Of a stretch of DNA of 64,000 nt, positions 8,679 to 64,000 are shown piece by piece. The translations under genes and the position numbers were made by a program. The notes below the pieces were generated by a model. It was not told the DNA's origin. It made no database searches and worked only from the letters and a program-made list of their open reading frames with translations. This stretch comes from Candidatus Magasanikiibacteriota bacterium (GTDB taxonomy: Bacteria > Patescibacteriota > Patescibacteriia > Magasanikbacterales > GWA2-37-8), in contig CALRIA010000003.1 of the NCBI GenBank assembly GCA_943359595.1, forward strand, positions 3,179-67,178, written 5' to 3'. Within the stretch, counting starts at the first letter, position 1. The number at the start of each line of letters is the position of its first letter.

Positions 8679-8682
8679 ATTT

Positions 8683-9792: not shown

Positions 9793-9794
9793 AT

Positions 9795-10874
9795 ATGTTT
9801 AATAATAATCCATTTGAAGGGGCATTTGGCTTGGATATAGGTGACCTATCTTTAAAATTAGTACAATTATCTTCTCCTTCCACCTTCAGTTATGACCATC
9901 GCTACAAAATAGAACACATGACAAGTATTACCTTGCCACCTGGTTATATTGTTAATGGCGAAATCCAACAGCCAGAGATGGTTCGACACAAACTATTGCA
10001 ATTGCTTGGAAAAAGTGGGCATGGAGAAAAAATTAATTCACCGTGGGTAGTGGCTGATCTACCAGAACCAAAAACTTTTCTAACCTCAATAGAAATAGAT
10101 ATACCGCCAGAACAAATTACTCAAGAAGACATTGAATATCAATGCCAAAAACATCTTCCGTTTGATCTACAAGAAGCCTATTTAGATTGGCAAATAATTC
10201 CACTACATGAAAAAACGCGGTTTACCAGAGTTTTAATTGGCGCTACTCCAAAAACCATTGCTGATTCATATACTTATTTATTAGAGAGCGTCGGTCTTCA
10301 ACCGGTTGCTTTGGAGGTAGAATCTCTAGCTATCGCCAGGTCGCTAATTAATGAAGAAAATGTTGCTGGAGCAATTTTAGATATTGGAGCCACCAGATCA
10401 TCTGTAATTATCTATGATGCAGGCGGTGTACGCTTTAGCACTACCATAAATTTTTCTGGAGAAATAATTAATATGGCTCTTATCCAACAATTAAAAATTA
10501 CCTACGATGAGGCCGAAGATTTAAAAATTAAAAATGGAATTAATTATACAAAAGAAAAATCTGACTACCTAAAAATTATAGATGAGCTTATCAATAATTT
10601 GATAATCGAAATTAAAAAAACTATTATCTATTACCATGACCATTATCCTCAAACTACGCCAATTGAACAAGTTGAGCTTTGTGGCGGCATGGCTATGATG
10701 CAGAATTTACTACCAACTTTGGCTCGTCGATTAAAAATAAAATTTAAACTAGGCAATGCTTGGAAAAATATTAAAACTGAAAAACTAACGGATAGTCAAA
10801 AAAATCGTGAACTTACTATGGTTTCAGCAACCGGCTTAGCTCTACGCGCTATGATAAACCCATACAACGATTAA
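9795..10874 (+). CDS. pilM: Type IV pilus assembly protein PilM (actin-like)
   Basis: 'FGLDIGDLSLKLVQL' N-terminus, ASKHA-fold length, position after pilC. Confidence 0.75.
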   Translation: MFNNNPFEGAFGLDIGDLSLKLVQLSSPSTFSYDHRYKIEHMTSITLPPGYIVNGEIQQPEMVRHKLLQLLGKSGHGEKINSPWVVADLPEPKTFLTSIEIDIPPEQITQEDIEYQCQKHLPFDLQEAYLDWQIIPLHEKTRFTRVLIGATPKTIADSYTYLLESVGLQPVALEVESLAIARSLINEENVAGAILDIGATRSSVIIYDAGGVRFSTTINFSGEIINMALIQQLKITYDEAEDLKIKNGINYTKEKSDYLKIIDELINNLIIEIKKTIIYYHDHYPQTTPIEQVELCGGMAMMQNLLPTLARRLKIKFKLGNAWKNIKTEKLTDSQKNRELTMVSATGLALRAMINPYND

Positions 10875-10875
10875 T

Positions 10876-11403
10876 ATGTTACCATCTAAAATTAATATTC
10901 TATCACCTAACAAAAAAAGTCTTTTAGAAAAATTGATTAAATTTATTTTTTTTAAAGAAATGGTAGAAATTATTTTACTAGTAGCGGCCTTTCTATCAGT
11001 CGTTCTATTATGGAGTTGGTTTGCGTTACAAAATCAATTTAATGACTTATCTCAAAGTGCCATGCTCGTAAATAGGGAATATTCTCATTATAACCAAGAA
11101 ATTAGAAAAATAAATACTTTAATTAAACAATTTAATTCAGCCAACAAAAACTACACGCCACTAACAGCAAAAATTTTGGAGCTGATCGAAAAACTACCAA
11201 ATGAAATAAAAATAAATTCATTATCTATTAACCAAAAAACAAATATAATAACTATTTCTGGAATGGCCAAAACTCGCGGTTCATTATTGGACTATCAGGC
11301 AACATTAAAAGATTATTCCTGGCTAAAAACAGTCCAAACTCCAACTTCTCAGTTATTTCAAAAAGAAAATGTTAATTTTGAAATTAAAGCCAGCCAAAAA
11401 TAA
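10876..11403 (+). CDS. pilN: PilN-like pilus assembly protein
   Basis: Single N-terminal TM followed by a coiled-coil/periplasmic region. Gene order pilM-N-O. Confidence 0.6.
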   Translation: MLPSKINILSPNKKSLLEKLIKFIFFKEMVEIILLVAAFLSVVLLWSWFALQNQFNDLSQSAMLVNREYSHYNQEIRKINTLIKQFNSANKNYTPLTAKILELIEKLPNEIKINSLSINQKTNIITISGMAKTRGSLLDYQATLKDYSWLKTVQTPTSQLFQKENVNFEIKASQK

Positions 11404-11407
11404 AAAT

Positions 11408-11947
11408 ATGAAATTAAATACTGAAAAAAGAACTATTATAATACTGACGATTTTTTCGGTCATTACTTTGATTATAATTTTCCAAATAATATTTCCCACT
11501 ATTCGATATATTAAAAATCTAGAACAAGACACCAATAATCTTAGAGAATATTTAGAAAAAAAATACGAAAATACCAAGACAATACGCACCTCAAAGAAAA
11601 AAATTGAAGAAATTAAGTCAACAGTGGCCAAATATCCTGATTATTTATTTTATCATGGTGACGAACTCAAATTAATCACAACTTTAGAAAATATAGCCAC
11701 CAGAAACCAAATAATTCAAAAAATTGATAATTCAAACTTGGATAAGTTGGACGATAAACTCAATCTTTCTCTAACTTTAAATGGTGATTACCAAAATATC
11801 TTAAAGTATTTATCAGCGTTGGAAAAAGAAAATTATTATTTTATCATCACTAATCTACAGCTTTCTTCCGCTTTTAGTCCACAAAATAATAATACCAACG
11901 CTACTATAATGAATTTGGATCTAATACTATATGTCAATCAACACTAA
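11408..11947 (+). CDS. pilO: PilO-like pilus assembly protein
   Basis: N-terminal TM and coiled-coil segment. Start taken at the internal ATG after the pilN stop. Confidence 0.55.
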   Translation: MKLNTEKRTIIILTIFSVITLIIIFQIIFPTIRYIKNLEQDTNNLREYLEKKYENTKTIRTSKKKIEEIKSTVAKYPDYLFYHGDELKLITTLENIATRNQIIQKIDNSNLDKLDDKLNLSLTLNGDYQNILKYLSALEKENYYFIITNLQLSSAFSPQNNNTNATIMNLDLILYVNQH

Positions 11948-41075: not shown

Positions 41076-41104
41076 TTGACACCCCAAAATATTAGTGATA
41101 TAAT
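41076..41104 (+). promoter_or_regulatory. Perfect consensus sigma70 promoter TTGACA-N17-TATAAT
   Basis: Read directly. Points into the Rep leader. Confidence 0.6.
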
Positions 41105-42303: not shown

Positions 42304-42348
42304 TTAAGTTTAAACATATTTTTATGGCTTTCATCAACACAAAACGGT

Positions 42349-42531: not shown

Positions 42532-42542
42532 TACTATATGTG

Positions 42543-42657
42543 GGCTTACCCGATACAATACAATAAACGCTATTAAAGACTTTTTTATTTTCATACCAGA
42601 GATGGGCAGTCCTGTCCGATGAAATAGTCTTTTTTAGCTATTTGTGTCGGGTAAGCC
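42543..42657. repeat. 11-bp inverted repeat (ggcttacccga / tcgggtaagcc) bracketing about 93 bp just upstream of the recombinase start
   Basis: Read directly. Confidence 0.55.
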
Positions 42658-42692
42658 AGGGCTGTCCTTTTTTGTTTTTAATCATTTTCATT

Positions 42693-44384
<1,692 letters not shown>

Positions 44385-52828: not shown

Positions 52829-54853
52829 ATGATAAATTTTGAGCAAGATTTAAATAAAGAACAATTAGCTGTTGTCCAAAGTGGAGATGGCCCTTGCTTA
52901 GTATTGGCCGGAGCTGGTTCTGGGAAAACTCGTACGATAACATACCGTGTTGCTTATCTGTTGGAAAAAGGCGTGCCACCAGAACAAATTTTACTAGTTA
53001 CTTTTACCAACCGTGCCGCCCATGAAATGATCGAACGTGTCCAAACACTCACAAATACTGATCTACCATTGCCGTGGTCAGGAACCTTTCACCATATCGC
53101 CAATAAAATGCTTAGACAGTATGCAACTTATCTAGGATATAAAAATAATTTTACAGTTTTAGACGCCGATGATAGTCAGGCCTTAATAAAAATATGTATT
53201 AAAGAATTTAAAACTACAGACCGATTTCCTTCCGCCAAAGTTGTAGGTTCAATTATTAGTTTTGCTCGTAATTCTCAAACAAATATTGAAGAAACAATCG
53301 AAGAAAAATTTTCTGCCTGGTGGCATCTTTCTAAAACTATCGGCGATGTATCTTCTCGCTATGAACAAAAGAAAAAAGAATCAAATGTAATGGATTTTGA
53401 TGATCTGCTTATCAACTTAGCATTATTATTAAATATTCCCGGTATTCAAGAAAAATTTTCTGGCCAGTTTAAATATATTTTGGTAGATGAATATCAAGAT
53501 ACTAATAAATTACAGGCTAATATTATTGATAAATTAGCCAAAATTCATCGTAATATCTTGGTAGTTGGTGACGACGCTCAGAGCATATATTCTTTCCGTG
53601 CGGCAGATGTTAAAAATATTTTAAACTTTGAAGAAAAATATCCAGAGGCCAAAACTTTTCGTCTTGAAACTAACTATCGCTCTCATCAACAAATATTATC
53701 TTTGGCTAATGATGTTATTTCCAACAATCGTTATCAATATCCCAAACAATTAAAAGCAATAAAAGAAAAAGGGGTAAAACCAAATTTATATCCTAAAAAT
53801 GATCAATCGGATGAAGCAGAATTTGTAGTAAAAAAGATTAATGAACTATTAGAACAAGGAACTGCCCCTCACCATATTGCCGTACTTTTTCGTGCCGCCA
53901 GCCATTCCCAACTATTAGAAATGGAACTAGCCAAAGTTGGTATTCTTTACGATTACCGTGGCGGTCTACGTTTTTTTGATCGTGCTCATATCAAAGATGT
54001 ACTGAGTTATTTACGTATATTAAATAATTTATCAGATACTGCCGCTTGGTTGCGGGTTTTATTACGCGAAGAAGGTATTGGCCCAGCTGCTGCTAATAAA
54101 ATTATTGAAGCAGTCCAAAAACTAGAAAAAATCGAAAACTTAAAAAATATCGCTCAAGGATTGAGTAATAAAATTCAAACAGGCTTCAATAATTTCCTAG
54201 AAATTTTTGAAACTCTATTGGCAGCCTACATTCCAGAAAATAATCCGGGAGATTTAATTGAATCAATCATTAATTCTCGTTATAACGATTACCTAACTAC
54301 TGAATATTTAGATAGTGAAGAACGAAAAAAAGATTTAGAGCAAATGGCAATTTTTGCCAACAAACATAAAAATCTTTCCGACTTCTTGGCTGAAGCCAGC
54401 TTACAAGAATCATTTGTTAAACCAACTGCCATTAATAAAAATTCAACTGACCTACAAAAACGATTGGTTTTGTCTACCATTCATCAAGCTAAGGGTTTAG
54501 AATGGGAAGCGGTTTTTATTATTAACATCGCCAACGATGCTTTTCCCAATAGTCGCGCTGTATCTGAGCCAAATGGGCTAGAAGAAGAACGTCGTTTGCT
54601 TTATGTAGCTATCACTCGAGCAAAAAAACACCTCACTCTCACTTATCCAATGTCCACACAGAGGTGGGGGGCAGTCGCTGGCCCAAGTATATTTTTATCC
54701 GAAATAAACCAAGAATTAATTGAGGATCACTCTATCCTATCCTACAAAAGTACAGTATTTAATAATAATGACGATGATATCCAATATATACCGGAAGACC
54801 AACCATTTAAAATAAAACCAGGTAGTTTTCTACGCGATCTCGATGATTTATAA
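52829..54853 (+). CDS. uvrD: ATP-dependent DNA helicase, UvrD/PcrA/Rep family
   Basis: 'VLAGAGSGKTRTITYRVAYL' motif I, 'VDEYQDTN' motif II, 'VGDDAQSIYSFRAA' motif III, C-terminal 'TIHQAKGLEWEAVFI'. Confidence 0.9.
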   Translation: MINFEQDLNKEQLAVVQSGDGPCLVLAGAGSGKTRTITYRVAYLLEKGVPPEQILLVTFTNRAAHEMIERVQTLTNTDLPLPWSGTFHHIANKMLRQYATYLGYKNNFTVLDADDSQALIKICIKEFKTTDRFPSAKVVGSIISFARNSQTNIEETIEEKFSAWWHLSKTIGDVSSRYEQKKKESNVMDFDDLLINLALLLNIPGIQEKFSGQFKYILVDEYQDTNKLQANIIDKLAKIHRNILVVGDDAQSIYSFRAADVKNILNFEEKYPEAKTFRLETNYRSHQQILSLANDVISNNRYQYPKQLKAIKEKGVKPNLYPKNDQSDEAEFVVKKINELLEQGTAPHHIAVLFRAASHSQLLEMELAKVGILYDYRGGLRFFDRAHIKDVLSYLRILNNLSDTAAWLRVLLREEGIGPAAANKIIEAVQKLEKIENLKNIAQGLSNKIQTGFNNFLEIFETLLAAYIPENNPGDLIESIINSRYNDYLTTEYLDSEERKKDLEQMAIFANKHKNLSDFLAEASLQESFVKPTAINKNSTDLQKRLVLSTIHQAKGLEWEAVFIINIANDAFPNSRAVSEPNGLEEERRLLYVAITRAKKHLTLTYPMSTQRWGAVAGPSIFLSEINQELIEDHSILSYKSTVFNNNDDDIQYIPEDQPFKIKPGSFLRDLDDL

Positions 54854-54932
54854 AACTCACCTTAAAAAGTGAGTTTTAATTTTATCACTTTGTTTGAAAG
54901 TTAAATTTATGGTATAATTCAATAAATAATTT

Positions 54933-55319
54933 ATGACAATTACTTCTGATAAAAAATTAAAAAGAATTTTGATAGTCGAGGATGAAAAGCCTATGGCTCA
55001 TGCTCTAGAATTAAAATTAAACCATTCTGGTTTTGAAACAACCGTTGCTTCTGACGGTGAAATGGCTTTAGAAAATTTAAAAAAACAAAAATTTGATTTA
55101 GTATTACTAGATTTAATGATACCAAAATTAGATGGATTTGGAGTAATGAAAGCCATGAAAGACAACAAGGATAAGACGCCAGTTATTATCGCCTCAAATC
55201 TAGGACAGGAAGACGACGCACAAAAAGCAAAATCAATGGGGGCAACCTGGTATTTTGTAAAATCTGACACTCCAATAAATAAAATCGTGGATTATATCGT
55301 AGGTACTTTAATGTCTTAA
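54933..55319 (+). CDS. Single-domain response regulator (CheY/PilH-like receiver)
   Basis: 'ILIVEDEKP...DLVLLDLMIPKLDG' with phospho-acceptor Asp. 128 aa. Directly upstream of pilB2. Confidence 0.8.
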   Translation: MTITSDKKLKRILIVEDEKPMAHALELKLNHSGFETTVASDGEMALENLKKQKFDLVLLDLMIPKLDGFGVMKAMKDNKDKTPVIIASNLGQEDDAQKAKSMGATWYFVKSDTPINKIVDYIVGTLMS

Positions 55320-55326
55320 AATAAGT

Positions 55327-56979
55327 ATGCAAATTGACGATAAAAAAATCAAACAGGTATTGTTGGATGGCAATTATGTTACTGCCGATGATATCACCAA
55401 AGCTGAAACCGCTATTAAAACTACTCAGGGTACAGTAGTAGACTGGCTTTTGTCATCTGAAATTATTAATAAAGATTTGTTAGGACAGGCTATAGCTGAA
55501 GCAGACAAAGTTAGCTACTCTGATTTAAATACCTATAAACCTAGCCAAGAACAAGTCCGTCTATTACCAGAAGATCTAGCCAAACAATTTCATGCTGTGA
55601 TATTTCGCCAAGAAGGTGACGAAATAATAGTGGCTACTGATGACCCAACTCAAGTTGAATTAACCAAAAAATTAAAAACTCTTTTTAAAGACAAAAAAAT
55701 AGTAACTACCTTTTCTTTTATCGAAGATATCGAAGAATCTTTTATTCATTATCTAAAAACTTTAGAGACACGTTTCAATGAAATTATAAAACAACAAAAA
55801 CGCATCGCCCCAGAGCTAATTGAACAAATTATTGATGATGCTGTCGCTTATCGAGCTTCTGATGTCCATTTAGAACCGCAAGAAAAAGAAGTAATAGTCC
55901 GCTTCCGTATCGATGGTGTAATGCAAGAAGCTGGACGTATCCCAAAAGATTATTATGGCAATATTTTAAACCGTATCAAAGTTCAGGCTCAACTACCAAT
56001 TGACGAACATTTTTCTGCTCAAGATGGGGCCGCCAGACAGGTGAGAGAAAAATATACTGTAGACATGCGTATTTCCATTCTACCAACTCTTAATGGAGAA
56101 AAAGTTGTAATTCGTCTTTTGTCTCAATACGTTCGCAGTTTTTCTTTTAGTGATTTAGGTCTATCTCAACACGATCAAGAATTACTTTTAAAAACAATCA
56201 ACAAACCATTTGGAATGATTTTAGTTACCGGCCCAACTGGTTCTGGGAAAACAACTTCACTTTACGCCTTATTAAAATTATTAAATAGTCCGGATGTTAA
56301 CATTACTACTATTGAAGATCCGGTCGAATATAAAATGGCTGGTGTTAATCAAATTCAAGTTAATCCACAGACCAACCTCACCTTCGCCAAAGGCTTGCGC
56401 TCTATTGTTCGTCAAGATCCAGATATTATATTAGTTGGTGAAATTCGTGATCAAGAAACAGCTGAAACAGCAGTGAACGCTGCACTTACTGGACATTTAT
56501 TACTTTCCACTTTTCATGCCAACGATGCGGCTACAGCGATACCGCGTCTTTTGGATATGGATATTGAACCATTTTTGCTATCATCTACTTTAGTAGTTCT
56601 CATCGCCCAACGTCTCGTACGAAAAATTTGCGATCAATGTCGTTATAGCGTCTCATTGAGCAAAGAGGAGATAAAAAAAACCATTTCACAAGATGTACAA
56701 AAATATTTCTCTGGAAAACATATTGTTTTATATAAAGGTAAAGGCTGTGCTGGCTGTGGCAACACTGGTTTTCGTGGTCGTACTGCCATTTATGAATTTA
56801 TCGAGGTCACTCCTGAAATTCAAGAATTAATTTTACAAAACCCTTCAACTGCTCAAATTTGGAAAATTGCCAGAAAACAAGGGTCGGTTACTTTGTTTGA
56901 AGATGGAATCGAAAAAGTAAAAAGTGGTACCACTTCTTTAGAAGAATTATTAAGAATGGCGGAACCTCCAAAATTTTAA
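55327..56979 (+). CDS. pilB: Type IV pilus assembly ATPase PilB/GspE family (second copy)
   Basis: Walker A 'GPTGSGKTTSLYA', N-terminal GSPII_E_N-like domain, C-terminal 'CDQC...CAGCGNTG'. Confidence 0.9.
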   Translation: MQIDDKKIKQVLLDGNYVTADDITKAETAIKTTQGTVVDWLLSSEIINKDLLGQAIAEADKVSYSDLNTYKPSQEQVRLLPEDLAKQFHAVIFRQEGDEIIVATDDPTQVELTKKLKTLFKDKKIVTTFSFIEDIEESFIHYLKTLETRFNEIIKQQKRIAPELIEQIIDDAVAYRASDVHLEPQEKEVIVRFRIDGVMQEAGRIPKDYYGNILNRIKVQAQLPIDEHFSAQDGAARQVREKYTVDMRISILPTLNGEKVVIRLLSQYVRSFSFSDLGLSQHDQELLLKTINKPFGMILVTGPTGSGKTTSLYALLKLLNSPDVNITTIEDPVEYKMAGVNQIQVNPQTNLTFAKGLRSIVRQDPDIILVGEIRDQETAETAVNAALTGHLLLSTFHANDAATAIPRLLDMDIEPFLLSSTLVVLIAQRLVRKICDQCRYSVSLSKEEIKKTISQDVQKYFSGKHIVLYKGKGCAGCGNTGFRGRTAIYEFIEVTPEIQELILQNPSTAQIWKIARKQGSVTLFEDGIEKVKSGTTSLEELLRMAEPPKF

Positions 56980-56988
56980 TTTTATCCC

Positions 56989-58515
56989 ATGAAACCGGAT
57001 AAAACAATGGACAATAAGATAACCTCTCCAAAAAAGAAATCTAACATTTTATCTTTTACTTTTGGTTTCACTGAAGAGAGCCAATATTTTGTAGAAAATT
57101 TATCAATGCTCTTGGCTTCCGGTATGGATATTATCGAAGCTTTAGAAGCGATTAAAGCCGAAATTAAATCTACTAAACTTATAGATATAATTGATGAATT
57201 GGTAGAAAATATTAATTCTGGTTTTAGTTTATGGCAATCTTTGGAGAAAACCAAATTACTACCACCACATATTATATCTTTAGTAAAAATCGGTGAAGAA
57301 AGTGGGCGATTACATGAAAGTTTGGCAGTTGTGGTAGTTCAACAAAATAAAAGCCAATCATTCAAGTCCAAAATACGGGCAGCCATGATGTACCCGGTAT
57401 TTGTAATGGGGGTAGCCATGACTGTTGGGATTGGCATTGCCTGGTTTATCTTACCTAAACTTTCTACAGTTTTTAGCCAACTAAATCTAAAATTACCTTT
57501 GGTCACTAGATTATTAATGAGTTTTGGCGCATTTTTATCACGCTACGGATCAATTGTAGTACCAACATTTATTATTAGTATTAGTATATTTTTCTATTTT
57601 CTATTTTTTTATCAAAAAACTAAATTTATCGGCCAAGCAATTTTATTTTCTATCCCAGGAATTAAAAACCTCATTCGCGAAGTAGAACTAGCACGTTTTG
57701 GTTATATCATGGGTACACTACTTGAAGCTGGGTTACCAGTGCTCGAAGCTTTGAACTCGTTAAAAGAGTCCGGTACTTTACGTGCCTATGGCAGAATATA
57801 TATACAATTAAAAGAAGGCATTGAAGAAGGAAAATCATTTGAAGAATGTTTTCATTCCAACCGCCACATAAAGAAACTTATCCCAACTACCATTCAGAGC
57901 TTAATTGCCGTCGGAGAACGCTCTGGCAGACTAGGAAAGATATTTTTAAATATTAGCGAGAACTACGAAAATAAAACTGAGCTAACTACCAAAAATTTAA
58001 GCGTAATTTTAGAACCGTTATTATTAGTAATTGTTTGGCTTGGAGTAGTGGCCGTAGCCATGGCGGTGATTTTACCAATTTATAGTTTAGTAGGTGGTTT
58101 AAATCAAAAACCTCAAGCTAGCAACCCACCTACTCCCACCGTAACTATTGTCGCCACACCGGTAATCAAAGTTAATAGTGCAGTCATAACCATTGGCACC
58201 CAAGGGATTGTTAATAATAGTTCAACACCTTCTTCGTTACAGACTTTAACACAAACATCGACCCCACCGGCAATTCCAACACTTACCTCCAGCATACCAA
58301 CAACAGGATTTTTAGAAGTATCACAAAATAAACTTGGCTATTTAAATATTCGTGCCACACCATCATCAAAATCTGAATTAATACGCAAAGCTTCTATCGG
58401 AGAAAAATTTAATTATATAGAAATTCAGGATGGATGGTATAAAATAATTTTATCTGCTGACCAATACGGCTGGGTCAGTTCGCAATATGTTCAAATTATT
58501 TCACCCACACTTTAA
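56989..58515 (+). CDS. pilC: PilC/GspF-family platform protein with a C-terminal Thr/Pro-rich linker and SH3b-like domain
   Basis: Two GspF-type repeats and three TM segments. After the last TM comes 'PTPTVTIVATP...TSTPPAIPTLTSS', then 'GYLNIRATPSSKSELIRKASIGEKFNYIEIQDGWYKI...GWVSSQYV', which is bacterial SH3-like. Confidence 0.8.
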   Translation: MKPDKTMDNKITSPKKKSNILSFTFGFTEESQYFVENLSMLLASGMDIIEALEAIKAEIKSTKLIDIIDELVENINSGFSLWQSLEKTKLLPPHIISLVKIGEESGRLHESLAVVVVQQNKSQSFKSKIRAAMMYPVFVMGVAMTVGIGIAWFILPKLSTVFSQLNLKLPLVTRLLMSFGAFLSRYGSIVVPTFIISISIFFYFLFFYQKTKFIGQAILFSIPGIKNLIREVELARFGYIMGTLLEAGLPVLEALNSLKESGTLRAYGRIYIQLKEGIEEGKSFEECFHSNRHIKKLIPTTIQSLIAVGERSGRLGKIFLNISENYENKTELTTKNLSVILEPLLLVIVWLGVVAVAMAVILPIYSLVGGLNQKPQASNPPTPTVTIVATPVIKVNSAVITIGTQGIVNNSSTPSSLQTLTQTSTPPAIPTLTSSIPTTGFLEVSQNKLGYLNIRATPSSKSELIRKASIGEKFNYIEIQDGWYKIILSADQYGWVSSQYVQIISPTL

Positions 58516-58519
58516 AATT

Positions 58520-58969
58520 ATGGGTAAAATAATTAAAAAAAATGGTTTTACACTTTTGGAACTACTTTTAGTAGTGGCTTTAATGGGTGTATTAGCCATC
58601 GTATCTGCTCCAATGTATCTATCTTTACAGGCAGAAAATGAAATGAGTATTACTTCGGTTACTATTGGTGATATTTTACATCGCGCTCAACTAAAATCGC
58701 AGGCGATTGATAGCGATTCTTCCTGGGGAGTAGAGATAACAAATGGATTGCTAATTATTTTTAAAGGATCGAATTTTATCAATCGCGACCAAACATTTGA
58801 TGAAAATTTTTCTTTAGCCAACACTATTAAATTATCCGGTTTAACAGAGGTTATTTTTGCTCCCTTATCTGGAATACCAAATATTGTCGGCGCAATTAAG
58901 CTACAACATTCAGACGGTCGCCAGTCACAACTAAGTATTAATGGAATGGGAATTATCAATATCCCATGA
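58520..58969 (+). CDS. Prepilin-type (class III signal) pseudopilin, GspH/FimT-like
   Basis: 'KKNG|FTLLELLLVVALMGVLAI' prepilin cleavage/methylation motif. Start placed at the Met that gives a short leader. Confidence 0.75.
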   Translation: MGKIIKKNGFTLLELLLVVALMGVLAIVSAPMYLSLQAENEMSITSVTIGDILHRAQLKSQAIDSDSSWGVEITNGLLIIFKGSNFINRDQTFDENFSLANTIKLSGLTEVIFAPLSGIPNIVGAIKLQHSDGRQSQLSINGMGIINIP

Positions 58970-58973
58970 TAAT

Positions 58974-59447
58974 ATGATAAGTATTAAAAAGAAAAAACAA
59001 TTTGAACCAAACGGTTTTTCTTTAATAGAAATTGTTTTATCTAGCGGTTTATTAGGATTGTTTGCCTTGGCTTTTTTAGGAGTGCTCGGCTTTAGCCAAG
59101 AAAGTACTTTGCGCGCTGGACAGCGTAATCGGGCCATTTTTTTGGCCGAAGAAGGTGTAGAGGCCACTCAAAGTATTCGAGATGAAAATTTTGCCAATTT
59201 AATCGCTGGTGATCATGGTCTAAAAACTGATACTAAATGGAATTTCACCAATCAGCCGGATATCATAGACGGCTTTACACGCACATTAACAATAGCTGAT
59301 GTCAATTCCCAAACCAAACAAGTTACTTCACAAGTAGCTTGGAAACAATCTGGAGGAAATCAGGTGTCAGTATCATTTTCAACCTTATTTACCGATTGGC
59401 GTACAGCAACTAGCACTGGAACTAGTACGCAATTTTGTGGAGTTTAA
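58974..59447 (+). CDS. Prepilin-type minor pilin
   Basis: 'EPNG|FSLIEIVLSSGLLGL' N-terminus. Confidence 0.7.
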   Translation: MISIKKKKQFEPNGFSLIEIVLSSGLLGLFALAFLGVLGFSQESTLRAGQRNRAIFLAEEGVEATQSIRDENFANLIAGDHGLKTDTKWNFTNQPDIIDGFTRTLTIADVNSQTKQVTSQVAWKQSGGNQVSVSFSTLFTDWRTATSTGTSTQFCGV

Positions 59448-59448
59448 T

Positions 59449-59955
59449 ATGTATTATTTAAAAAACAACCGAGGTTTTACTTTAATTGAATTATTATTAT
59501 ACACCGTGATAGCTGCCGGGTTACTTTTATCTATCACCGCCATGATCGCGCTACTCAGTCAATCTAGAATAAAAAACCAGACTATCAGTACGGTAGAACA
59601 ACAAGGAACTCAAATATTACAAATCATCAACCAAGAAATTAGAAATTCCTCAATCGTAATTTCACCCGCAAATGGCGTCAGTGGAACCACTTTACAATTA
59701 CAAGATATTAATGGAAAAAATACAACTTTTAATTTATCTAGTAGTACACTAAACGAAACAAAACTTAATCAGACAACACCAATTTCTTCCAATAATATTA
59801 TTGTAAGCAACCTAAAATTTTTAAATTTAACTCCAGACAATATCCACAATTCCATTAAAATAAATTTTACTTTAAATTATAATAATATTGCCAGCCGAAT
59901 CGAATATAATTATAGTCAAACTTTTTATGACACAGCCACGCTACGACAACCTTAA
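59449..59955 (+). CDS. Prepilin-type minor pilin
   Basis: 'NNRG|FTLIELLLYTVIAAGLLL' N-terminus. Confidence 0.7.
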   Translation: MYYLKNNRGFTLIELLLYTVIAAGLLLSITAMIALLSQSRIKNQTISTVEQQGTQILQIINQEIRNSSIVISPANGVSGTTLQLQDINGKNTTFNLSSSTLNETKLNQTTPISSNNIIVSNLKFLNLTPDNIHNSIKINFTLNYNNIASRIEYNYSQTFYDTATLRQP

Positions 59956-60340
59956 TAAAAATGGATTCGCCGTCTTGATCGGCGTCTTGATTGTCGGCGC
60001 TTTTGGCACGGCAGTAGTTTTGTATTTAATATTGTCAGGTATATATTCTTATCAAAATAGTTTTATTTTAGAGCAATCTAATATTGCCAAGACAACGGCC
60101 AATGCTTGCGCTGAAATCGCTTTAAATAAAATCCAGCTATGTTCTTCAACTGTTGGAATAGGAAGTGCTCAAATTGGAAGTTCCACCTGTAACTATGAAA
60201 TTATCAACAATGGCAACCAATCCAGAACTATACAAGTATCTTCACAAATAGGCACAATTACTAGAAAAGCAAAAATATTGGTTGACAAAATCAATCCAAA
60301 AATTACAATTAATTCTTGGCAGGAAGTAGCCTCATTCTAA
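59927..60340 (+). CDS. PilX-like minor pilin (N-terminal PilX_N-type helix)
   Basis: 'NKNGFAVLIGVLIVGAFGTAVVLYL' resembles the PilX N-terminus. Overlaps the previous gene by about 29 nt. Start uncertain. Confidence 0.55.
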   Translation: MTQPRYDNLNKNGFAVLIGVLIVGAFGTAVVLYLILSGIYSYQNSFILEQSNIAKTTANACAEIALNKIQLCSSTVGIGSAQIGSSTCNYEIINNGNQSRTIQVSSQIGTITRKAKILVDKINPKITINSWQEVASF

Positions 60341-60423
60341 CCGACACCTTAACTCTATAATTAAAAAATGATATAATGATAAGTAGTATCAAAAACTTTA
60401 AAAAATTAATTATTTATATAAAT

Positions 60424-60864
60424 ATGAAAAATATAAACAAAAAAGGCTTTACACTTTTGGAAATTTTATTGGTTGTTGCAGCTATCGCCATCTTAGCCGG
60501 CATAGTAATCGTTGCTATTAACCCTGGCAAACAATTGGCCGATACTCGTAACGCCCAAAGACAAGTTAATGTGAATACAATTTTAAACGGCGTCTACCAA
60601 TATTCTATTGATAATAAAGGCGTGCTGCCCGTTGGCATCACCCAAACTCCTACTGAAATCTGTAAGACTGGTGGCAATTGTCTTAATTTAATAGACCTGT
60701 CAGTTCTAACTACTAATGAAACATATCTAACCGCCATTCCAACTGATCCAACCGGCGTAAGTGCCAACGGCACTGGTTATAAAATTCAACAAAGTGTCAA
60801 CGGTCGCATTACCATCTCTGCACCTTCAGCCGAACAAGGGAAAACCATCAGTGTTACCAGATAA
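60424..60864 (+). CDS. pilA: Type IV pilin, PilA-like (candidate major pilin)
   Basis: 'MKNINKKG|FTLLEILLVVAAIAILAGIVIVAINPG' is a classic type IVa pilin N-terminus. 146 aa. Confidence 0.8.
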   Translation: MKNINKKGFTLLEILLVVAAIAILAGIVIVAINPGKQLADTRNAQRQVNVNTILNGVYQYSIDNKGVLPVGITQTPTEICKTGGNCLNLIDLSVLTTNETYLTAIPTDPTGVSANGTGYKIQQSVNGRITISAPSAEQGKTISVTR

Positions 60865-60878
60865 TTATTTATAAAAAA

Positions 60879-62528
60879 ATGGGCAAAAACAACTCTGGCT
60901 TTACCCTCCTAGAAATATTATTGGTAGTCGCTGCTATCGCAATTTTAGCAGGTATTGTTATTGTTGCCATTAATCCTGGTAAACAACTAGGAGCGACTAG
61001 AAATGCAGCCAGACAGTCGGATGTTAGCTCTATTCTTAATGCGGTATACCAATATTCTTTGGATAATAGCGGGTTATTTCCTCCAAACATAGATACAAAT
61101 TTAAGAATGCTCGGTACCAATGTTTCTGGTTGTGGAGTAATTTGTGGTCCAGTGGCTAATAGTAACACCAGCAGCCAATCAGTGCCAGTAAATTTTGCCG
61201 ACATTAATCAAACTACATTTGCTGGTACTTATACCAATAGCACATATAATACCAATAATAGTCTGATAAACCTTTCCTCTAACCAGATAACTGGTACTTA
61301 TACTTCAGATGTGAAAGATTCAGCCGGTGATACTACTTGGGCTACATTAGCTTGGGTGCCAAATCGTCCGACCGGGAAACCTTTACCAAATAATGCTCAA
61401 TCTGAAACCGCCTATCCAACCGGTAATGCCAATATGACTGGGGATGTATTGCTCATGCATTTAGATGAAAGCTCTGGCGCTACAAGTTTTGCTGATAATT
61501 CCGGTAGTAATAATAACGGAAGTTGTGCAAACCCAAACTGTCCTACTATGGCGACAGGCAAACTCGGTAATGCGCCAACTTTTTCTGCAGGAACCAATCC
61601 GATTTCCATACCTCATAGTGCCAGTTTAAATTTAACTAATCAATTTACTTTAGGCGCGTGGTTTTATCAAATTGCCACTTCAAGCTGGACAAGCTACGGT
61701 CACTTAATTGGTAAAGGTGTTGGTTTTAGTCCTCCTTCTGGATCTTTCTCCATCAGTGGAAATAGTTATTGGCGAGTATTCCTAGTTGACCCAGTCAAAA
61801 ATTCTTATCAGTACCAAGATGGTACTTGGATTGGATACAACTCTTGGCAACATATGGTTTTTACTTTTGATAATGGTACTGGAAAAATTTATTTAAATGG
61901 TTCTTTGCTTTCAACAAAAATCTTCTCATTCACATCTATTAGAACAAATAATCTTCCAGTACAAATCGGCTATGGACAATACAATGGTTTGGTTGATGAA
62001 GTTATTATTTTTAATCGCCCAATATCAGCTACTGAAGTAGCTGATATTTACAAACGTGGTGCTCTAAGTCTCAAACACCAAGTACGGTCTTGTGTTAATG
62101 CCAGCTGTTCCGATGGAACTTTTGTCGGACCAGATGGTACTGCCAAAAGTTATTATTCCGAAGCTAATAATAATTTAATTTCTACACCGTCGATATCTTT
62201 GACTAACATATCTAGCAATCGTTATTTTCAATATAAATCTTTTTTGGATAGCCCTGGTTCATCTATAACTCCTGAATTAAAAAGCGTAGCAATTGGTGGT
62301 ACACAATCGGTAATACAGGGTGGTGGAAATACTCCATCTTCAACGATAGCAGGTTGTCTGGACCTGTCTCCAACTCTTTCACCAACATACATTACCTCTA
62401 TTCCATTTGATCCTAAAACCGGCAGTAATAATCAAACCTATTATGCCATACAGAAAACATCTAATGGCAGAGTAAACGTACAGGCCTGCTCAGCAGAAAA
62501 CAACGAAGTTATTAATGTGACAAGATAA
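60879..62528 (+). CDS. Pilin-domain protein fused to a LamG/concanavalin-like lectin domain (candidate pilus adhesin)
   Basis: The N-terminal 60 aa are near-identical to the preceding PilA ('MGKNNSG|FTLLEILLVVAAIAILAGIVIVAINPGKQL'). The middle region is 'FTLGAWFY...YWRVFL...WQHMVFTFDNGTGKIYLNGSLL' (LamG-like). The C-terminus parallels the PilA C-terminus ('NGRVNVQACSAENNEVINVTR'). Confidence 0.8.
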   Translation: MGKNNSGFTLLEILLVVAAIAILAGIVIVAINPGKQLGATRNAARQSDVSSILNAVYQYSLDNSGLFPPNIDTNLRMLGTNVSGCGVICGPVANSNTSSQSVPVNFADINQTTFAGTYTNSTYNTNNSLINLSSNQITGTYTSDVKDSAGDTTWATLAWVPNRPTGKPLPNNAQSETAYPTGNANMTGDVLLMHLDESSGATSFADNSGSNNNGSCANPNCPTMATGKLGNAPTFSAGTNPISIPHSASLNLTNQFTLGAWFYQIATSSWTSYGHLIGKGVGFSPPSGSFSISGNSYWRVFLVDPVKNSYQYQDGTWIGYNSWQHMVFTFDNGTGKIYLNGSLLSTKIFSFTSIRTNNLPVQIGYGQYNGLVDEVIIFNRPISATEVADIYKRGALSLKHQVRSCVNASCSDGTFVGPDGTAKSYYSEANNNLISTPSISLTNISSNRYFQYKSFLDSPGSSITPELKSVAIGGTQSVIQGGGNTPSSTIAGCLDLSPTLSPTYITSIPFDPKTGSNNQTYYAIQKTSNGRVNVQACSAENNEVINVTR

Positions 62529-62532
62529 ATTT

Positions 62533-63759
62533 ATGCAATTAAATAACTACGTTATTATTATGTTGGCTGAAAGTTTACTCGTATTGATTTTATTATTTTT
62601 ATATTTACGATTATCTGCAAATTCAAATCTAATTTTGAATGAATTCAAAAAAACAAAAATTAAAATTGAAAAAGATAAGGCCAAAGAAGAAGCGATGCTT
62701 TCAAGTATAGGTGACGGTGTAGTAGCCACTGATAAAAATGGAATCATAATTTTCTTTAATCAGGCAGCTAGAGATATGCTATCTTGGGAAAATAATATGA
62801 TGGGGAAAAAATTAGGAGAAATATCGTTATTAGCTAATGAAAAAGGTGTTCATGTTCCATTAGAAAAACACCCTTTACATCTATCTTTAGTTAAACGAAA
62901 AAAAATAATCACTTCGGATTATCATTTTATTCGAAAAGACAATATAAACATGGCAGTTTATATTAGTGCCATGCCCATAATATTAAAAAATGAGATTGTC
63001 GGCGCCATCGAAGTATTTAGAAATATCACCCAAGAAAAAGAAATTGATAAAATAAAAAGTGAATTTGTATTTTTAGCTTCGCACCAGCTACGTACTCCGC
63101 TATCTACTATCAACTGGTACGTAGAGATGCTACTATCGGGCGATGCCGGACCAATTAACGATGACCAAAAAAAATATCTTCAAGAAGTTTATGCCGGAAA
63201 TCATCGTATGGTAGAAATGGTCAACGATTTGCTCAATGTTTCTCGTCTAGATTTAGGTACATTATCGGTTCAACTAGTGCCGGTTAATATAGTTGAATTA
63301 ATTACTGAATCAGAAAAAGAAGTGGCTGGTCTAATTGAAGATAAAAAATTAAATATAAATAAAAAAATCCCTTCTGATCTACCAGAAATAAATTCAGATA
63401 TCAAAATGATGCGCATGTTATTACAGAACTTAATTACCAACGCTATCAAATATACACCTCCTAATGGCAACATCAACATAGGCATAGAGCTACAAAATAA
63501 AAAAGAATATTTATTGACTATAGCTGACACTGGTTACGGCATACCAGTCGCAGCTCAAGATAAAATATTTACCAAACTTTTCCGCGCAGAAAACGTAATG
63601 GAAAAAGAAATTACTGGCACAGGTTTAGGATTATATATGGTGAAATCTATAGTTGAACAGTTAAATGGAAAAATTTGGTTCGAATCAAAAGAAAACATTG
63701 GCACCAAATTTTTTGTATCTTTTCCATTTAAACCAATAATAAAGAAAAAAGTAGTTTGA
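62533..63759 (+). CDS. Sensor histidine kinase with N-terminal TM and PAS-like domain
   Basis: H-box 'ASHQLRTPLSTINWYVEML'. HATPase_c N, G1 and G2 boxes ('LLQNLITNAIKY', 'IADTGYGI', 'GTGLGLYMVKSIV'). Confidence 0.85.
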   Translation: MQLNNYVIIMLAESLLVLILLFLYLRLSANSNLILNEFKKTKIKIEKDKAKEEAMLSSIGDGVVATDKNGIIIFFNQAARDMLSWENNMMGKKLGEISLLANEKGVHVPLEKHPLHLSLVKRKKIITSDYHFIRKDNINMAVYISAMPIILKNEIVGAIEVFRNITQEKEIDKIKSEFVFLASHQLRTPLSTINWYVEMLLSGDAGPINDDQKKYLQEVYAGNHRMVEMVNDLLNVSRLDLGTLSVQLVPVNIVELITESEKEVAGLIEDKKLNINKKIPSDLPEINSDIKMMRMLLQNLITNAIKYTPPNGNINIGIELQNKKEYLLTIADTGYGIPVAAQDKIFTKLFRAENVMEKEITGTGLGLYMVKSIVEQLNGKIWFESKENIGTKFFVSFPFKPIIKKKVV

Positions 63760-63760
63760 T

Positions 63761-64000
63761 ATGAAAAAACTATCAAAAAAAATCCTAATAATAGAAAACG
63801 AGTTAGCTACTAGACGAATTTTGGTAGATAAGTTAACACATGAAAAATTTTTGGTATCAGAAGCAAGTGACGGCAAAGATGGCTTAGATAAAGCCTTTAA
63901 TGAGCACCCTGATCTAATAACCCTTGACCTATTCATGCCAAAAATGAACGGTTTGGAAGTTTTAAAAAAGCTGCATGAAGATTCCTGGGGCAAGCAGGTT
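63761..64000 (+). CDS. Response regulator receiver domain protein (3'-partial, runs off the window)
   Basis: ATG immediately after the HK stop. 'KILIIENELATRRIL...DLITLDLFMPKMNGLEVL' receiver motifs. No stop before the window end. Confidence 0.75.
   Translation, partial: MKKLSKKILIIENELATRRILVDKLTHEKFLVSEASDGKDGLDKAFNEHPDLITLDLFMPKMNGLEVLKKLHEDSWGKQV

What the first reader, a model, noticed from the sequence alone, without database searches (positions are those of the whole stretch)
54933..62528. Second type IV pilus locus with a PilC-SH3b fusion and a pilin-LamG lectin fusion
A receiver-only response regulator precedes pilB2 and pilC2. PilC2 carries a roughly 140-aa C-terminal extension after its last TM: a Thr/Pro-rich linker plus a bacterial SH3-like domain.

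Five or six prepilin genes follow. The last two share a near-identical N-terminal 60 aa. The final one inserts a roughly 330-aa LamG/concanavalin-like domain between the pilin N- and C-terminal parts. This architecture suits a pilus-tip adhesin.

An SH3b on the platform protein would tether the machine to the cell wall. A lectin pilin suggests carbohydrate-mediated attachment, for example to a host cell if this is an episymbiont.

A histidine kinase and response regulator pair follows immediately.
Basis: partly seen in the sequence, partly recalled or inferred. Interest (0 to 1): 0.5.

Follow-up and report, generated by a model that had tools for sequence, protein, structure and literature searches.

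The report
Patescibacterial pilus operon with domain fusions
This is a real type IV pilus operon from an uncultured ultrasmall (Patescibacteria/CPR) bacterium; its sugar-binding pilin belongs to an already catalogued class, while the cell-wall-binding domain on its membrane platform protein is widespread in this group but, as far as I could find, undescribed.

Summary
Window 54933-64000 (+ strand) encodes:
- a receiver-only response regulator;
- a PilB-type ATPase;
- a PilC-type platform protein whose 140-aa extracytoplasmic tail is a T/P/S linker plus an SH3_3 domain;
- four minor pilins, the fourth lacking Glu5;
- a ~146-aa pilin;
- a 549-aa paralogue of that pilin with a ~400-aa nested insert containing a Laminin_G_3 jelly roll;
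- a PAS histidine kinase and a second response regulator.

An earlier locus (6957-11947) holds PilB1, PilC1 and PilM/N/O, so "second locus" is correct.

Neither fusion is peculiar to this genome. The cassette is conserved across Patescibacteria: 57 PilC ORFs in 81 cassettes carry SH3b, and none has PilM/N/O nearby. Pilin + PF13385 is the commonest published modular-pilin architecture.

- The LamG pilin is an old duplicate of the terminal pilin, not a recent recombinant.
- Its lectin core is hypervariable inside a conserved scaffold, with 1-4 tandem copies in relatives.
- I found no paper describing PilC-SH3b.

Wall anchoring by SH3b and glycan adhesion by LamG are inferred, not shown. Interest is moderate.

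The parts
54851..54878 (+). Terminator-like hairpin between the upstream UvrD-like helicase gene and the response regulator; probable upstream operon boundary
   Evidence: Consensus scan only; terminator-like sites were not more frequent than in shuffles.
54933..55319 (+). Receiver-only response regulator (128 aa)
   Evidence: Response_reg 84.8 bits, no output domain. An RR sits just upstream of PilB in 56 of 81 related cassettes.
55327..56979 (+). PilB2, PilB/GspE-family extension ATPase with an MshEN N-terminal domain (550 aa)
   Evidence: T2SSE 416 bits, MshEN 41.4 bits. Best NCBIfam hit is type_IV_pilB at 505.6 bits, below the equivalog cutoff of 675.65.
56989..58104 (+). PilC2 body: two T2SSF domains and three TM segments (aa 137-155, 189-207, 344-362)
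   Evidence: T2SSF 154.9 bits, 2 stretches; AF2 helical body at pLDDT ~90; hydropathy scan.
58105..58305 (+). PilC2 extracytoplasmic T/P/S-rich disordered linker (aa 373-439)
   Evidence: pLDDT 40-55. Composition 15 T, 10 P, 9 S, 2 charged. In 57 homologues the linker is 27-117 aa (median 47) and 40% S+P+T.
58306..58515 (+). PilC2 C-terminal SH3b domain (aa 440-508) and stop codon
   Evidence: SH3_3 46.1 bits against cutoff 27. Beta-domain at pLDDT 94-97. The closest solved sequences are cell-wall-targeting SH3_3 domains: 4krt autolytic lysozyme (E 5.8e-5), then 2krs, 2kyb, 2kq8.
58520..58969 (+). Minor pilin 1 (H/ComGD-like position), G|FTLLE; the ORF opens at 58487, the likely start is 58520
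   Evidence: N_methyl 26.9 bits; motif; public gene calls start at the internal Met, giving 149 aa.
58974..59447 (+). Minor pilin 2 (I/ComGE-like position), G|FSLIE; the ORF opens at 58941. This gene is enlarged to 450-1700 aa in most other Patescibacteria.
   Evidence: Motif; census. Enlarged homologues carry LVIVD/beta-propeller, Laminin_G_3 or fn3.
59449..59955 (+). Minor pilin 3 (J/ComGF-like position), G|FTLIE
   Evidence: N_methyl 22.0 bits; sub-threshold ComGF hit at 27 bits; motif.
59927..60340 (+). Minor pilin 4 (K-like), G|FAVLI with no Glu5; candidate filament cap
   Evidence: Motif. In 70 homologues the +5 residue is mostly I/L/V/M and never E among the residues listed.
60349..60377 (+). 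Promoter-like site (TTAACT-17-TATAAT with TG) just upstream of the small pilin
   Evidence: Consensus scan only. The region total was 45 sites against 36.9 +/- 4.9 in shuffles.
60424..60864 (+). Small pilin (~146-aa prepilin, G|FTLLE), probable major subunit; the ORF opens at 60376
   Evidence: N_methyl 26.1 bits. A ~145-165-aa terminal pilin closes the pilin block in nearly all cassettes, and 76/81 have Glu5.
60879..61091 (+). LamG pilin: class III signal peptide and alpha-1 helix (aa 1-71)
   Evidence: N_methyl 24.1 bits. 76% identical to the small pilin. The profile matches solved pilins (Geobacter PilA-N, PilE1, GspG) at positions 4-70.
61092..62348 (+). LamG pilin nested insert (aa ~72-490). 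The ConA-like jelly roll is at about aa 193-395 (nt 61455-62063; Pfam match aa 238-388). It is flanked by conserved beta-rich segments of unknown family.
62349..62528 (+). LamG pilin C-terminal pilin segment (aa 491-549) and stop codon
   Evidence: 49% identical to the C-terminal 57 aa of the small pilin. Predicted strands at 522-526, 532-536 and 546-548. Invariant C493 and C537.
62533..63759 (+). Membrane-anchored PAS histidine kinase (408 aa)
   Evidence: HATPase_c 92.1, HisKA 54.0, PAS_9 32.7 bits; one N-terminal TM segment. An HK lies downstream in 45 of 81 cassettes within the fetched flank.
63761..64000 (+). Second response regulator, truncated by the window end
   Evidence: Translation MKKLSKKILIIENE...DLITLDLFMPKMNG; phmmer hit to the first RR in the census.
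6957..11947 (+). Context: first pilus locus, machinery only (PilB1, PilC1 without extension, PilM, PilN, PilO-like); no pilin genes
   Evidence: ORFs. PilM_2 127.2 bits; PilN 27.9 bits against cutoff 22.8; T2SSM_b 19.7 bits, below cutoff.

Best explanation
The region is one copy of a compact type IV filament operon that lacks PilM/N/O and is conserved throughout Patescibacteria (CPR).

Shown:
- The parts list: a CheY-like RR, a PilB-type ATPase, a PilC-type platform, four minor pilins in H/I/J/K-like order with a Glu5-less fourth, one small pilin, one LamG-bearing paralogue of it, then an HK and an RR.
- PilC2 has three TM segments, so its 140-aa tail (flexible T/P/S linker plus SH3b) lies outside the membrane.
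- The LamG pilin is the small pilin's scaffold with a ~400-aa module nested between alpha-1 and the C-terminal beta-sheet.

Inferred mechanism:
- PilB2 drives PilC2 to polymerise the small pilin beneath a tip complex made of the four minor pilins.
- The SH3b domain reaches into the cell's own wall on its tether. It positions or holds the platform there, doing a job that periplasmic or wall-associated partners do in other systems.
- The LamG pilin co-assembles through its major-pilin-like alpha-1 helix with Glu5 and projects a lectin outward to bind surface glycans, plausibly those of a host cell.
- The hypervariable lectin core and the variable copy number set binding specificity.
- The RR and the HK-RR pair control assembly or expression.
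For: Identity of the parts.

Topology: one search finds three TM segments, and the AF2 model has a helical body, a disordered linker and a confident beta-domain.

Conservation of PilC-SH3b:
- Nearly all of the top 120 homologues carry it, down to 42% identity.
- 57 PilC ORFs carry it in a census of 81 cassettes from GTDB species genomes spanning Magasanik-, Moran-, Doudna-, Uhr-, Jackson-, Gracili- and Dojkabacteria and WWE3.
- Across these the linker stays S/P/T-rich while its sequence is free. This is what an extracellular tether would look like.

SH3b relatives: the closest solved sequences are wall-targeting SH3_3 domains of a clostridial autolysin and clostridial wall proteins.

No PilM/N/O lies within 10 kb of any cassette.

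LamG pilin:
- Paralogy with the small pilin at both ends.
- Jelly-roll fold closest to carbohydrate-binding modules and to S. sanguinis PilC.
- Family entropy is 2.62 bits in the LamG core against 1.3-1.7 elsewhere.
- Four tandem paralogues in one relative are 78-81% identical in their pilin parts and 25% identical in the LamG core.

Published parallels:
- Lectin pilin PilC binds glycans (PMC9934059).
- Lectin-like and beta-propeller pilins PilX1 and PilX2 are implicated in host binding by the saccharibacterium TM7x (PMC11623550).
Against: - No binding was tested for either domain.
- SH3b domains also mediate protein-protein contacts.
- About 24 of 81 cassettes do without SH3b, so it is dispensable in some lineages.
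- If PilC rotates during assembly, as the current model described in PMC6916266 holds, a stable wall tether would conflict with unlimited rotation.
I therefore did not verify directly that the C-terminal strands pack against alpha-1, nor whether the bulky insert fits in a filament shaft.
- 'Major pilin' is assigned from size, position and conservation only, with no expression data.
- No prepilin peptidase or PilT was recognised in the window.
- The host-dependent lifestyle of this organism is assumed from its phylum.
Confidence: 0.6

Rival explanations
1. The SH3b domain does not anchor PilC2 to the cell's own peptidoglycan. It might instead bind a protein partner outside the membrane, such as a pilin, the emerging filament or an S-layer protein. 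It might also act as a sensor or gate in place of a PilN/O-type ring.
For: The cassette lacks PilM/N/O, so some extracytoplasmic contact has to be made by other parts. The rotary model of PilC (PMC6916266) is hard to reconcile with a fixed wall tether. The matches to wall-binding SH3_3 domains are weak (best E 5.8e-5). About 24 of 81 cassettes lack the domain.
Against: The only sequence-detectable solved relatives are wall-targeting SH3_3 domains of autolysins and wall proteins. NCBIfam's weak hits are also cell-wall-binding proteins, EntA-D and EntFM. A long, low-complexity S/P/T tether of variable length suits reaching into a wall better than docking onto a defined partner at the membrane.
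Confidence: 0.25
2. The cassette is a competence (Com-like) DNA-uptake pilus rather than an adhesive pilus.
For: The gene content resembles a comG operon: an ATPase, a platform and five to six pilins, with no PilM/N/O and no PilT nearby. Minor pilins 1-3 give sub-threshold hits to ComGD, ComGE and ComGF in that order.
Against: ComGA (255.2 against cutoff 300) and ComGB (133.8 against 240) are below their NCBIfam cutoffs, and the ATPase is a full-length PilB/GspE type with an MshEN domain. A hypervariable, tandemly amplified lectin pilin has no obvious role in DNA binding. In TM7x, pilus mutants kept wild-type competence (PMC11623550).
Confidence: 0.12
3. The LamG-like module is an enzyme of the ConA-like glucanase or lyase type that cuts host surface polysaccharide, rather than a lectin.
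Confidence: 0.08
4. The cassette is a type II secretion-like pseudopilus that exports proteins rather than building an exposed fibre.
For: GspE (487.2 bits), GspF (201.8 bits) and GspG models score nearly as well as the pilus models.
Against: All these scores are below the equivalog cutoffs (630.25 for GspE, 424 for GspF). No secretin or GspC/L/M-type gene was recognised among the ORFs I examined around either locus. A 549-aa lectin-bearing pilin implies surface exposure.
Confidence: 0.05

Closest known systems
Modular type IV pilins, architecture IPR012902-PF13385 (Raynaud et al. 2021, PNAS, PMC8179133)
   Same: [quoted passage not shown] This is the most frequent modular-pilin architecture in their census (229 proteins), and their Fig. 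8 example for the top architecture comes from Candidatus Magasanikbacteria.
   Different: Their definition describes a module grafted onto the C-terminal end of a short pilin through a linker. Here the module is nested inside the pilin, with 57 pilin residues following it, more like the alpha-domain inserted in GspK that they mention. The carrier is a duplicate of the probable major pilin.
Streptococcus sanguinis PilC lectin pilin (PDB 7oa7/7oa8; Shahin et al. 2023, PMC9934059)
   Different: S. sanguinis PilC has a very short pilin moiety, an Ig-like module and a C-terminal lectin, and is modelled in a tip complex with PilA and PilB. Sequence identity is only 11-14%. Here the operon has a separate set of four minor pilins, and the lectin pilin keeps a full pilin scaffold and Glu5.
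Two type IV pili of the saccharibacterium Nanosynbacter lyticus TM7x (Grossman et al. 2024 preprint, PMC11623550)
   Same: A Patescibacteria organism with several pilus loci, two PilB/PilC pairs, and lectin-like (PilX1) and beta-propeller (PilX2) pilins linked to host binding. The enlarged second minor pilins in relatives of this cassette carry LVIVD/beta-propeller or LamG modules.
   Different: Both TM7x machinery loci include PilM/N/O, whereas this cassette never does. The paper does not mention SH3 (0 occurrences). In this window the bulky module sits in a major-pilin paralogue, not in a minor pilin.
Peptidoglycan-binding accessories of other type IV filament machines (TsaP/FimV LysM, PilQ AMIN domains, ExeA/GspA; named from my own knowledge, not tested here), and the speculated wall-anchoring role of the enlarged PilO in monoderms (PMC6916266)
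   Same: They serve the proposed need: fixing or positioning the machine relative to the wall. The review calls wall anchoring and wall crossing in monoderm pili an open, speculative point.
   Different: Those domains sit on separate accessory proteins. Here the candidate wall-binding domain is fused directly to the platform protein PilC, belongs to a different fold family (SH3_3), and occurs in a cassette without PilM/N/O.
Cell-wall-targeting SH3_3 domains of autolysins and endolysins (for example 4krt autolytic lysozyme)
   Same: Same Pfam family. These are the closest solved sequence relatives (E 5.8e-5 for 4krt; also 2krs, 2kyb, 2kq8).
   Different: Those domains target hydrolases to the wall. 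Here the domain is tethered to a polytopic membrane protein of a secretion/assembly machine, and the similarity is weak.

Membership tests
Type IV filament (type IV pilus) assembly system | PilB/GspE-family hexameric ATPase | tested here: met
   T2SSE 416 bits against cutoff 24.9. However, TIGR02538 type_IV_pilB scores 505.6 against an equivalog cutoff of 675.65, so this is a divergent PilB-like protein.
Type IV filament (type IV pilus) assembly system | PilC/GspF platform protein with two T2SSF domains | tested here: met
   T2SSF 154.9 bits, two stretches; three TM segments at the canonical positions.
Type IV filament (type IV pilus) assembly system | Prepilins with a class III signal peptide (G|F-x-x-x-E plus a hydrophobic helix) | tested here: met
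   Five genes have G|FxxxE and one has G|FAVLI. N_methyl is above its cutoff for four of them.
Type IV filament (type IV pilus) assembly system | Prepilin peptidase (PilD) | tested here: inconclusive
   None was recognised among the window ORFs by inspection, and I ran no dedicated search. It is presumably encoded elsewhere in the genome.
Type IVa pilus (PilMNO-dependent, retractile) | PilM/PilN/PilO sub-complex encoded with the machine | tested here: not met
   Absent from this cassette and from the 10-kb flanks of all related cassettes. Present only in locus 1 of the window.
Type IVa pilus (PilMNO-dependent, retractile) | PilT retraction ATPase | tested here: not met
   PilB2 scores 190 on pilT_fam against a cutoff of 319.1. 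Both ATPases in the window are 550-573 aa PilB-like proteins. A PilT may exist outside the window.
Modular pilin sensu Raynaud et al. 2021 | [quoted passage not shown] | tested here: met
   N_methyl 24.1 bits plus Laminin_G_3 73.7 bits.
Modular pilin sensu Raynaud et al. 2021 | [quoted passage not shown] | tested here: not met
   The module is nested: 57 C-terminal residues align with the C-terminus of the small pilin (49% identity).
Bacterial SH3 (Pfam SH3_3, SH3b) | Profile score above the gathering threshold and a small beta-barrel fold | tested here: met
   46.1 bits against 27. Seven strands at aa 440-504 with pLDDT 94-97.
Bacterial SH3 (Pfam SH3_3, SH3b) | Binding to peptidoglycan or another cell-wall ligand | not testable with these tools
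   Only homology to wall-targeting SH3_3 domains is available.
Laminin_G_3 / ConA-like lectin fold | Profile score above the gathering threshold and a jelly-roll fold | tested here: met
Laminin_G_3 / ConA-like lectin fold | Carbohydrate binding | not testable with these tools
   Inferred from the nearest structural neighbours.
Core minor-pilin set (GspH/I/J/K, PilV/W/X-type) | Four contiguous minor pilin genes, the last lacking Glu5 | tested here: met
   Gene order and motifs. The fourth gene's homologues never show E at +5 among the residues listed.
Core minor-pilin set (GspH/I/J/K, PilV/W/X-type) | Sequence membership in the GspH/I/J/K or ComGD-G families | tested here: inconclusive
   Only sub-threshold NCBIfam hits, for example ComGF 27 bits against 80 and ComGE 20.5 against 49; none for the fourth gene.
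Com (competence) pilus | ComGA and ComGB equivalogs | tested here: not met
   ComGA 255.2 against 300; ComGB 133.8 against 240.
Type II secretion system | GspE and GspF equivalogs, plus a secretin and GspC/L/M | tested here: not met
   GspE 487.2 against 630.25; GspF 201.8 against 424. No secretin-like ORF was recognised among the ORFs I examined around either locus.

The most novel reading that the evidence does not exclude
In a PilMNO-less pilus cassette that appears ancestral to much of Patescibacteria, the platform protein PilC is itself tethered to the cell wall through its SH3b domain.

This would be a previously undescribed way of anchoring a type IV pilus machine in a monoderm-like envelope. 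It would also be a natural test of the rotary-platform model, because a wall-tethered PilC could not rotate without limit.

In parallel, major-pilin-derived LamG pilins with interchangeable hypervariable lectin cores would be incorporated below the tip or along the shaft and would determine which host glycans the cell attaches to.
Probability: 0.3. Interest if true: 0.6.

Novelty: new variant of a known kind. Interest (0 to 1): 0.42.

Why it matters
Type IV pili are the best-supported attachment and motility organelles of ultrasmall, host-dependent Patescibacteria (PMC11623550). How pilus machines are held in, and pass through, the wall of bacteria without an outer membrane is still openly speculative (PMC6916266).

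A wall-binding domain fused directly to the platform protein gives a concrete, testable candidate for that anchor. It is conserved across many Patescibacteria lineages and sits in a cassette without PilM/N/O. It also bears on whether the platform can rotate.

The lectin pilins have conserved scaffolds, cores that fall to ~25% identity between tandem copies, and a variable copy number. That makes them plausible determinants of host or substrate range in uncultured lineages, and practical targets for glycan-array work.

Against this, every component belongs to a known family, the pilin-LamG class is published, and none of the functions is shown here.

Tried and rejected
1. Recent gene conversion between the two pilin genes: rejected. 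The shared 68-codon block is 67% identical in DNA. 29 of the 52 conserved residues use different codons, and the longest exact run is 12 nt. The C-terminal block is 53% identical.

2. The idea that the fusions are unique to this genome: rejected by homologue searches and the genome census.

3. Literature on PilC plus SH3: four searches found nothing relevant. The library lacks most subscription journals, so absence is not proof.

4. Promoter and terminator scans: the counts are not clearly above shuffles (45 against 36.9 +/- 4.9, and 6 against 5.2 +/- 2.2). I use only two sites, and only as hints.

5. Assigning the insert flanks (aa ~72-192 and ~396-490): no Pfam hit even at E = 10 and no PDB sequence relative.

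6. Direct inspection of the AF2 model to confirm that the C-terminal strands pack on alpha-1 and to define the extra beta-domain: coordinates are not exposed to the scripting environment. The nested topology therefore rests on paralogue alignment and secondary structure.

7. NJ tree of PilC bodies to time the gain or loss of SH3b. SH3-less proteins are scattered among SH3-bearing ones and the basal branches carry SH3, which suggests an ancestral domain with repeated loss. The tree has short internal branches and no support values, and at least one 'SH3-less' entry (L014) is cut by a contig end. I treat it only as a hint.

8. The NCBIfam TafC hit on the LamG pilin (40 bits against cutoff 410): disregarded.

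Full report
**What is in the sequence**

On the + strand from 54933 to the window end there is a tightly packed gene row with short gaps or overlaps:
- a 128-aa receiver-only response regulator;
- a 550-aa PilB/GspE-family ATPase with an MshEN N-domain;
- a 508-aa PilC/GspF-family platform protein;
- six pilin-like genes;
- a 408-aa PAS histidine kinase;
- a second response regulator starting at 63761 that runs off the window.

The window also holds an earlier locus at 6957-11947. It has PilB1, a 393-aa PilC1 without any extension, PilM (PilM_2 127 bits), PilN (27.9 bits against 22.8) and a weak PilO-like protein, but no pilins. "Second locus" is therefore accurate. The two loci also differ in kind: machinery with PilM/N/O but no pilins, against ATPase plus platform plus pilins without PilM/N/O.

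**PilC2**

A hydropathy scan finds three TM segments at the canonical positions (137-155, 189-207, 344-362), separating two ~136-aa T2SSF domains. Those domains must face the cytoplasmic ATPase, so the 140 residues after TM3 are outside the membrane.

The AlphaFold2 model built on 58 homologues shows three parts:
- a confident helical body;
- a disordered stretch at ~370-438 (pLDDT 40-55);
- a compact seven-strand beta-domain at 440-504 (pLDDT 94-97).

The linker has 15 T, 10 P, 9 S and only two charged residues. By sequence, the closest solved relatives of the terminal domain are wall-targeting SH3_3 domains: the two SH3_3 repeats of autolytic lysozyme 4krt (E 5.8e-5), then clostridial "enterotoxin", glucosaminidase and cell-wall-hydrolase SH3 domains. 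NCBIfam's weak hits are also wall-binding proteins.

**The pilins**

Five of the six genes carry G|FxxxE. The fourth carries G|FAVLI. Several ORFs open upstream of the likely start codons, and public gene calls on the same sequence use the internal Met for the first pilin.

In 70 homologues of the fourth gene the +5 residue is mostly I, L, V or M, and E is not among the residues listed. The terminal small pilin has Glu5 in 76 of 81 cases. Four small pilins with a Glu5-less last member match the pattern of the H/I/J/K-type priming/tip complex described in PMC9934059. Sequence membership in those families is only sub-threshold.

The last two genes are paralogues at both ends: 52/68 N-terminal residues (76%, with a 31-residue identical run) and 28/57 C-terminal residues (49%). 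The 549-aa protein is therefore the small pilin's scaffold with ~400-420 aa nested between alpha-1 and the C-terminal strands.

The AF2 model is confident (mean pLDDT 91.9). Its only dips fall at ~91-100 and ~481-490, consistent with the two connectors of a nested module.

The module's core is a ConA-like jelly roll:
- Foldseek's top hits are the lectin-like HcN domains of tetanus and botulinum toxins, and AbnA domain 4.
- A family profile bounds the jelly roll at ~193-395 and matches solved pilins at positions 4-70.

The remaining ~215 aa of the insert are conserved and beta-rich but have no Pfam or PDB sequence relative.

**Is any of this special to this genome? No.**

The exact PilC2 sequence is on a MAG contig (GCA_964734745.1). 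The nearest named relatives are Candidatus Magasanikbacteria.

Almost all of the top 120 PilC2 homologues carry PF00482 plus PF08239, down to 42% identity. I scanned the species-representative genomes and ran an HMM/phmmer census on the fetched loci. This showed a conserved cassette across Magasanik-, Moran-, Doudna-, Uhr-, Jackson-, Nomura-, Gracili- and Dojkabacteria, WWE3 and others:

RR, PilB, PilC, four minor pilins, terminal ~150-aa pilin(s), HK, RR.

Census figures:
- 57 PilC ORFs in 81 cassettes have SH3b, and two of them have two copies.
- Linkers are 27-117 aa (median 47) and 40% S+P+T.
- PilB is immediately upstream in 71 of 81, an RR is upstream of it in 56, and an HK is downstream in 45 within the fetched flank.
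- None has PilM/N/O within 10 kb.
- One 1.02-Mb contig carries both an SH3-bearing and an SH3-less cassette about 13 kb apart (L044 and L075).

A rough NJ tree places SH3-less proteins scattered among SH3-bearing ones, with SH3-bearing basal branches. This hints at an ancestral domain with repeated loss, but the tree has no support values.

**The LamG pilins**

They form a family of ~550-aa proteins. In the census they are largely confined to the Magasanikbacteria-like loci, with one to four copies in tandem.

In those loci the second minor pilin is small (~155 aa). In most other lineages that gene is enlarged to 450-1700 aa and carries LVIVD/beta-propeller repeats, Laminin_G_3 or fn3 domains. 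The bulky surface module therefore appears to have been placed on different pilin carriers in different lineages. In one locus (L025) the same insert profile hits both a 1537-aa second minor pilin (E 1.6e-56) and a 547-aa terminal-pilin paralogue.

Variability is concentrated in the lectin core:
- Family entropy is 2.62 bits per column in aa 238-388, against 1.3-1.7 in every other segment.
- The four tandem paralogues of L001 are 78%, 66%, 25%, 77% and 81% identical in the N-pilin, 72-237, LamG-core, 389-490 and C-pilin segments respectively.

The duplication in this window is old. The shared N-block is 67% identical in DNA, with synonymous differences at 29 of 52 conserved codons, so purifying selection rather than recent gene conversion keeps the ends alike.

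**Comparison with the literature**

- Raynaud et al. 2021 defined modular pilins and counted IPR012902-PF13385 as the most common architecture (229 proteins). The example drawn for their top architecture is from Candidatus Magasanikbacteria.
- Shahin et al. 2023 showed that the ConA-like module of S. sanguinis PilC binds glycans, and modelled it in a tip complex.
- Grossman et al. 2024 showed two distinct pili in the saccharibacterium TM7x and implicated lectin-like PilX1 and beta-propeller PilX2 in host binding.

The pilin-lectin idea and its episymbiont reading are therefore established. What differs here is the nested topology and the major-pilin ancestry of the carrier.

For PilC-SH3b, four full-text searches found no description, and the TM7x paper does not mention SH3. 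The monoderm pilus review states that wall anchoring and wall crossing are unresolved and speculates about PilO. The same review describes the model in which the ATPase rotates the platform protein. A wall-tethered PilC sits awkwardly with unlimited rotation, which makes the fusion mechanistically interesting or else argues for a non-wall ligand.

**Most likely mechanism**

Steps marked "inferred" are not shown by any result here.

- PilB2 and PilC2 assemble the small pilin under a cap formed by the four minor pilins. The parts are shown; the roles are inferred from the family pattern.
- The SH3b domain, on a flexible S/P/T tether outside the membrane, engages the cell's own wall and positions the platform. 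The topology and the family are shown; the ligand is inferred.
- The LamG pilin enters the filament through its major-pilin-like alpha-1 helix with Glu5 and displays a lectin that binds surface glycans. The fold is shown; its incorporation site and its ligand are inferred.
- The RR and the HK-RR pair, conserved in synteny, regulate the system (inferred).

Rivals are a non-wall ligand for SH3b, a Com-like DNA-uptake role, an enzymatic LamG module, and a secretion pseudopilus. They are weighed in the dedicated fields.

**Verdict**

The locus is a typical member of a conserved Patescibacteria pilus cassette.

The LamG pilin is a new member of a published class with a nested-insertion twist. The PilC-SH3b fusion is a widespread feature that appears undescribed and merits a direct binding test.

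Interest is moderate (0.42).

Noticed in passing
window 40879-41004 (-): An Rfam LOOT RNA match at 84.5 bits (gathering score 46.4), full length. It lies in an intergenic stretch next to small lipoprotein-like ORFs.
   Followed up: no
window ~32919-44384: A probable integrated element bounded by two tRNA-Ser genes (32919-33007 and 44267-44352). A large serine recombinase (42642-44384: Resolvase + Recombinase + Zn_ribbon_recom) has its 3' end overlapping the second tRNA-Ser on the opposite strand. There is an AbiEii-like AAA_21 ATPase (38129-39343), and oddly G+C-rich overlapping ORFs at 33746-34359.
   Followed up: partly
window 15429-27606 (-): A cluster of large surface-type proteins. It includes an 1808-aa protein with 11 LVIVD repeats (300 bits) and a 967-aa protein with a CarboxypepD_reg-like domain. 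LVIVD/beta-propeller modules are what the enlarged second minor pilins carry in other Patescibacteria, so in this genome the module may be deployed off the pilus.
   Followed up: partly
window 44391-46925 (-): An 844-aa protein with three Lamin Tail Domains (118.9 bits), a PKD domain, a weak OB-fold hit and a C-terminal hydrophobic anchor. It sits directly beside the recombinase/tRNA-Ser junction.
   Followed up: no
L018, L035, L039, L044, L045, L054, L062, L072, L077 (second gene after PilC): In most non-Magasanikbacteria cassettes the second minor pilin is 450-1700 aa. Some carry LVIVD/beta-propeller, Laminin_G_3 or fn3 domains, and several (for example L018, L062, L077) have no Pfam match at all.
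   Followed up: partly
L044 and L075 (contig JAUIFI010000001.1, 681555-703009 and 715825-736898): One 1.02-Mb contig carries two copies of the cassette about 13 kb apart. One has PilC with SH3b (499 aa) and the other has PilC without it (398 aa).
   Followed up: no
L008, L010, L016, L019, L033, L036, L048, L058, L059, L060, L068, L077, L084: Several public MAG records carrying this typically patescibacterial cassette are titled 'uncultured Gammaproteobacteria', 'Pseudomonadales', 'Bdellovibrionales' or 'Acidimicrobiales'. These are probably mislabelled or misbinned records.
   Followed up: no
window 14560-15342 (-) and 15300-15374 (-): A 260-aa ORF overlaps the tRNA-Ala gene at its 5' end, so its real start is probably further downstream. 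Its function was not examined.
   Followed up: no
window 8611-9792 (+): The PilC1 ORF opens 68 nt inside the end of pilB1, and its first ~40 residues give a weak extra hydrophobic segment. The true start is probably further downstream.
   Followed up: no
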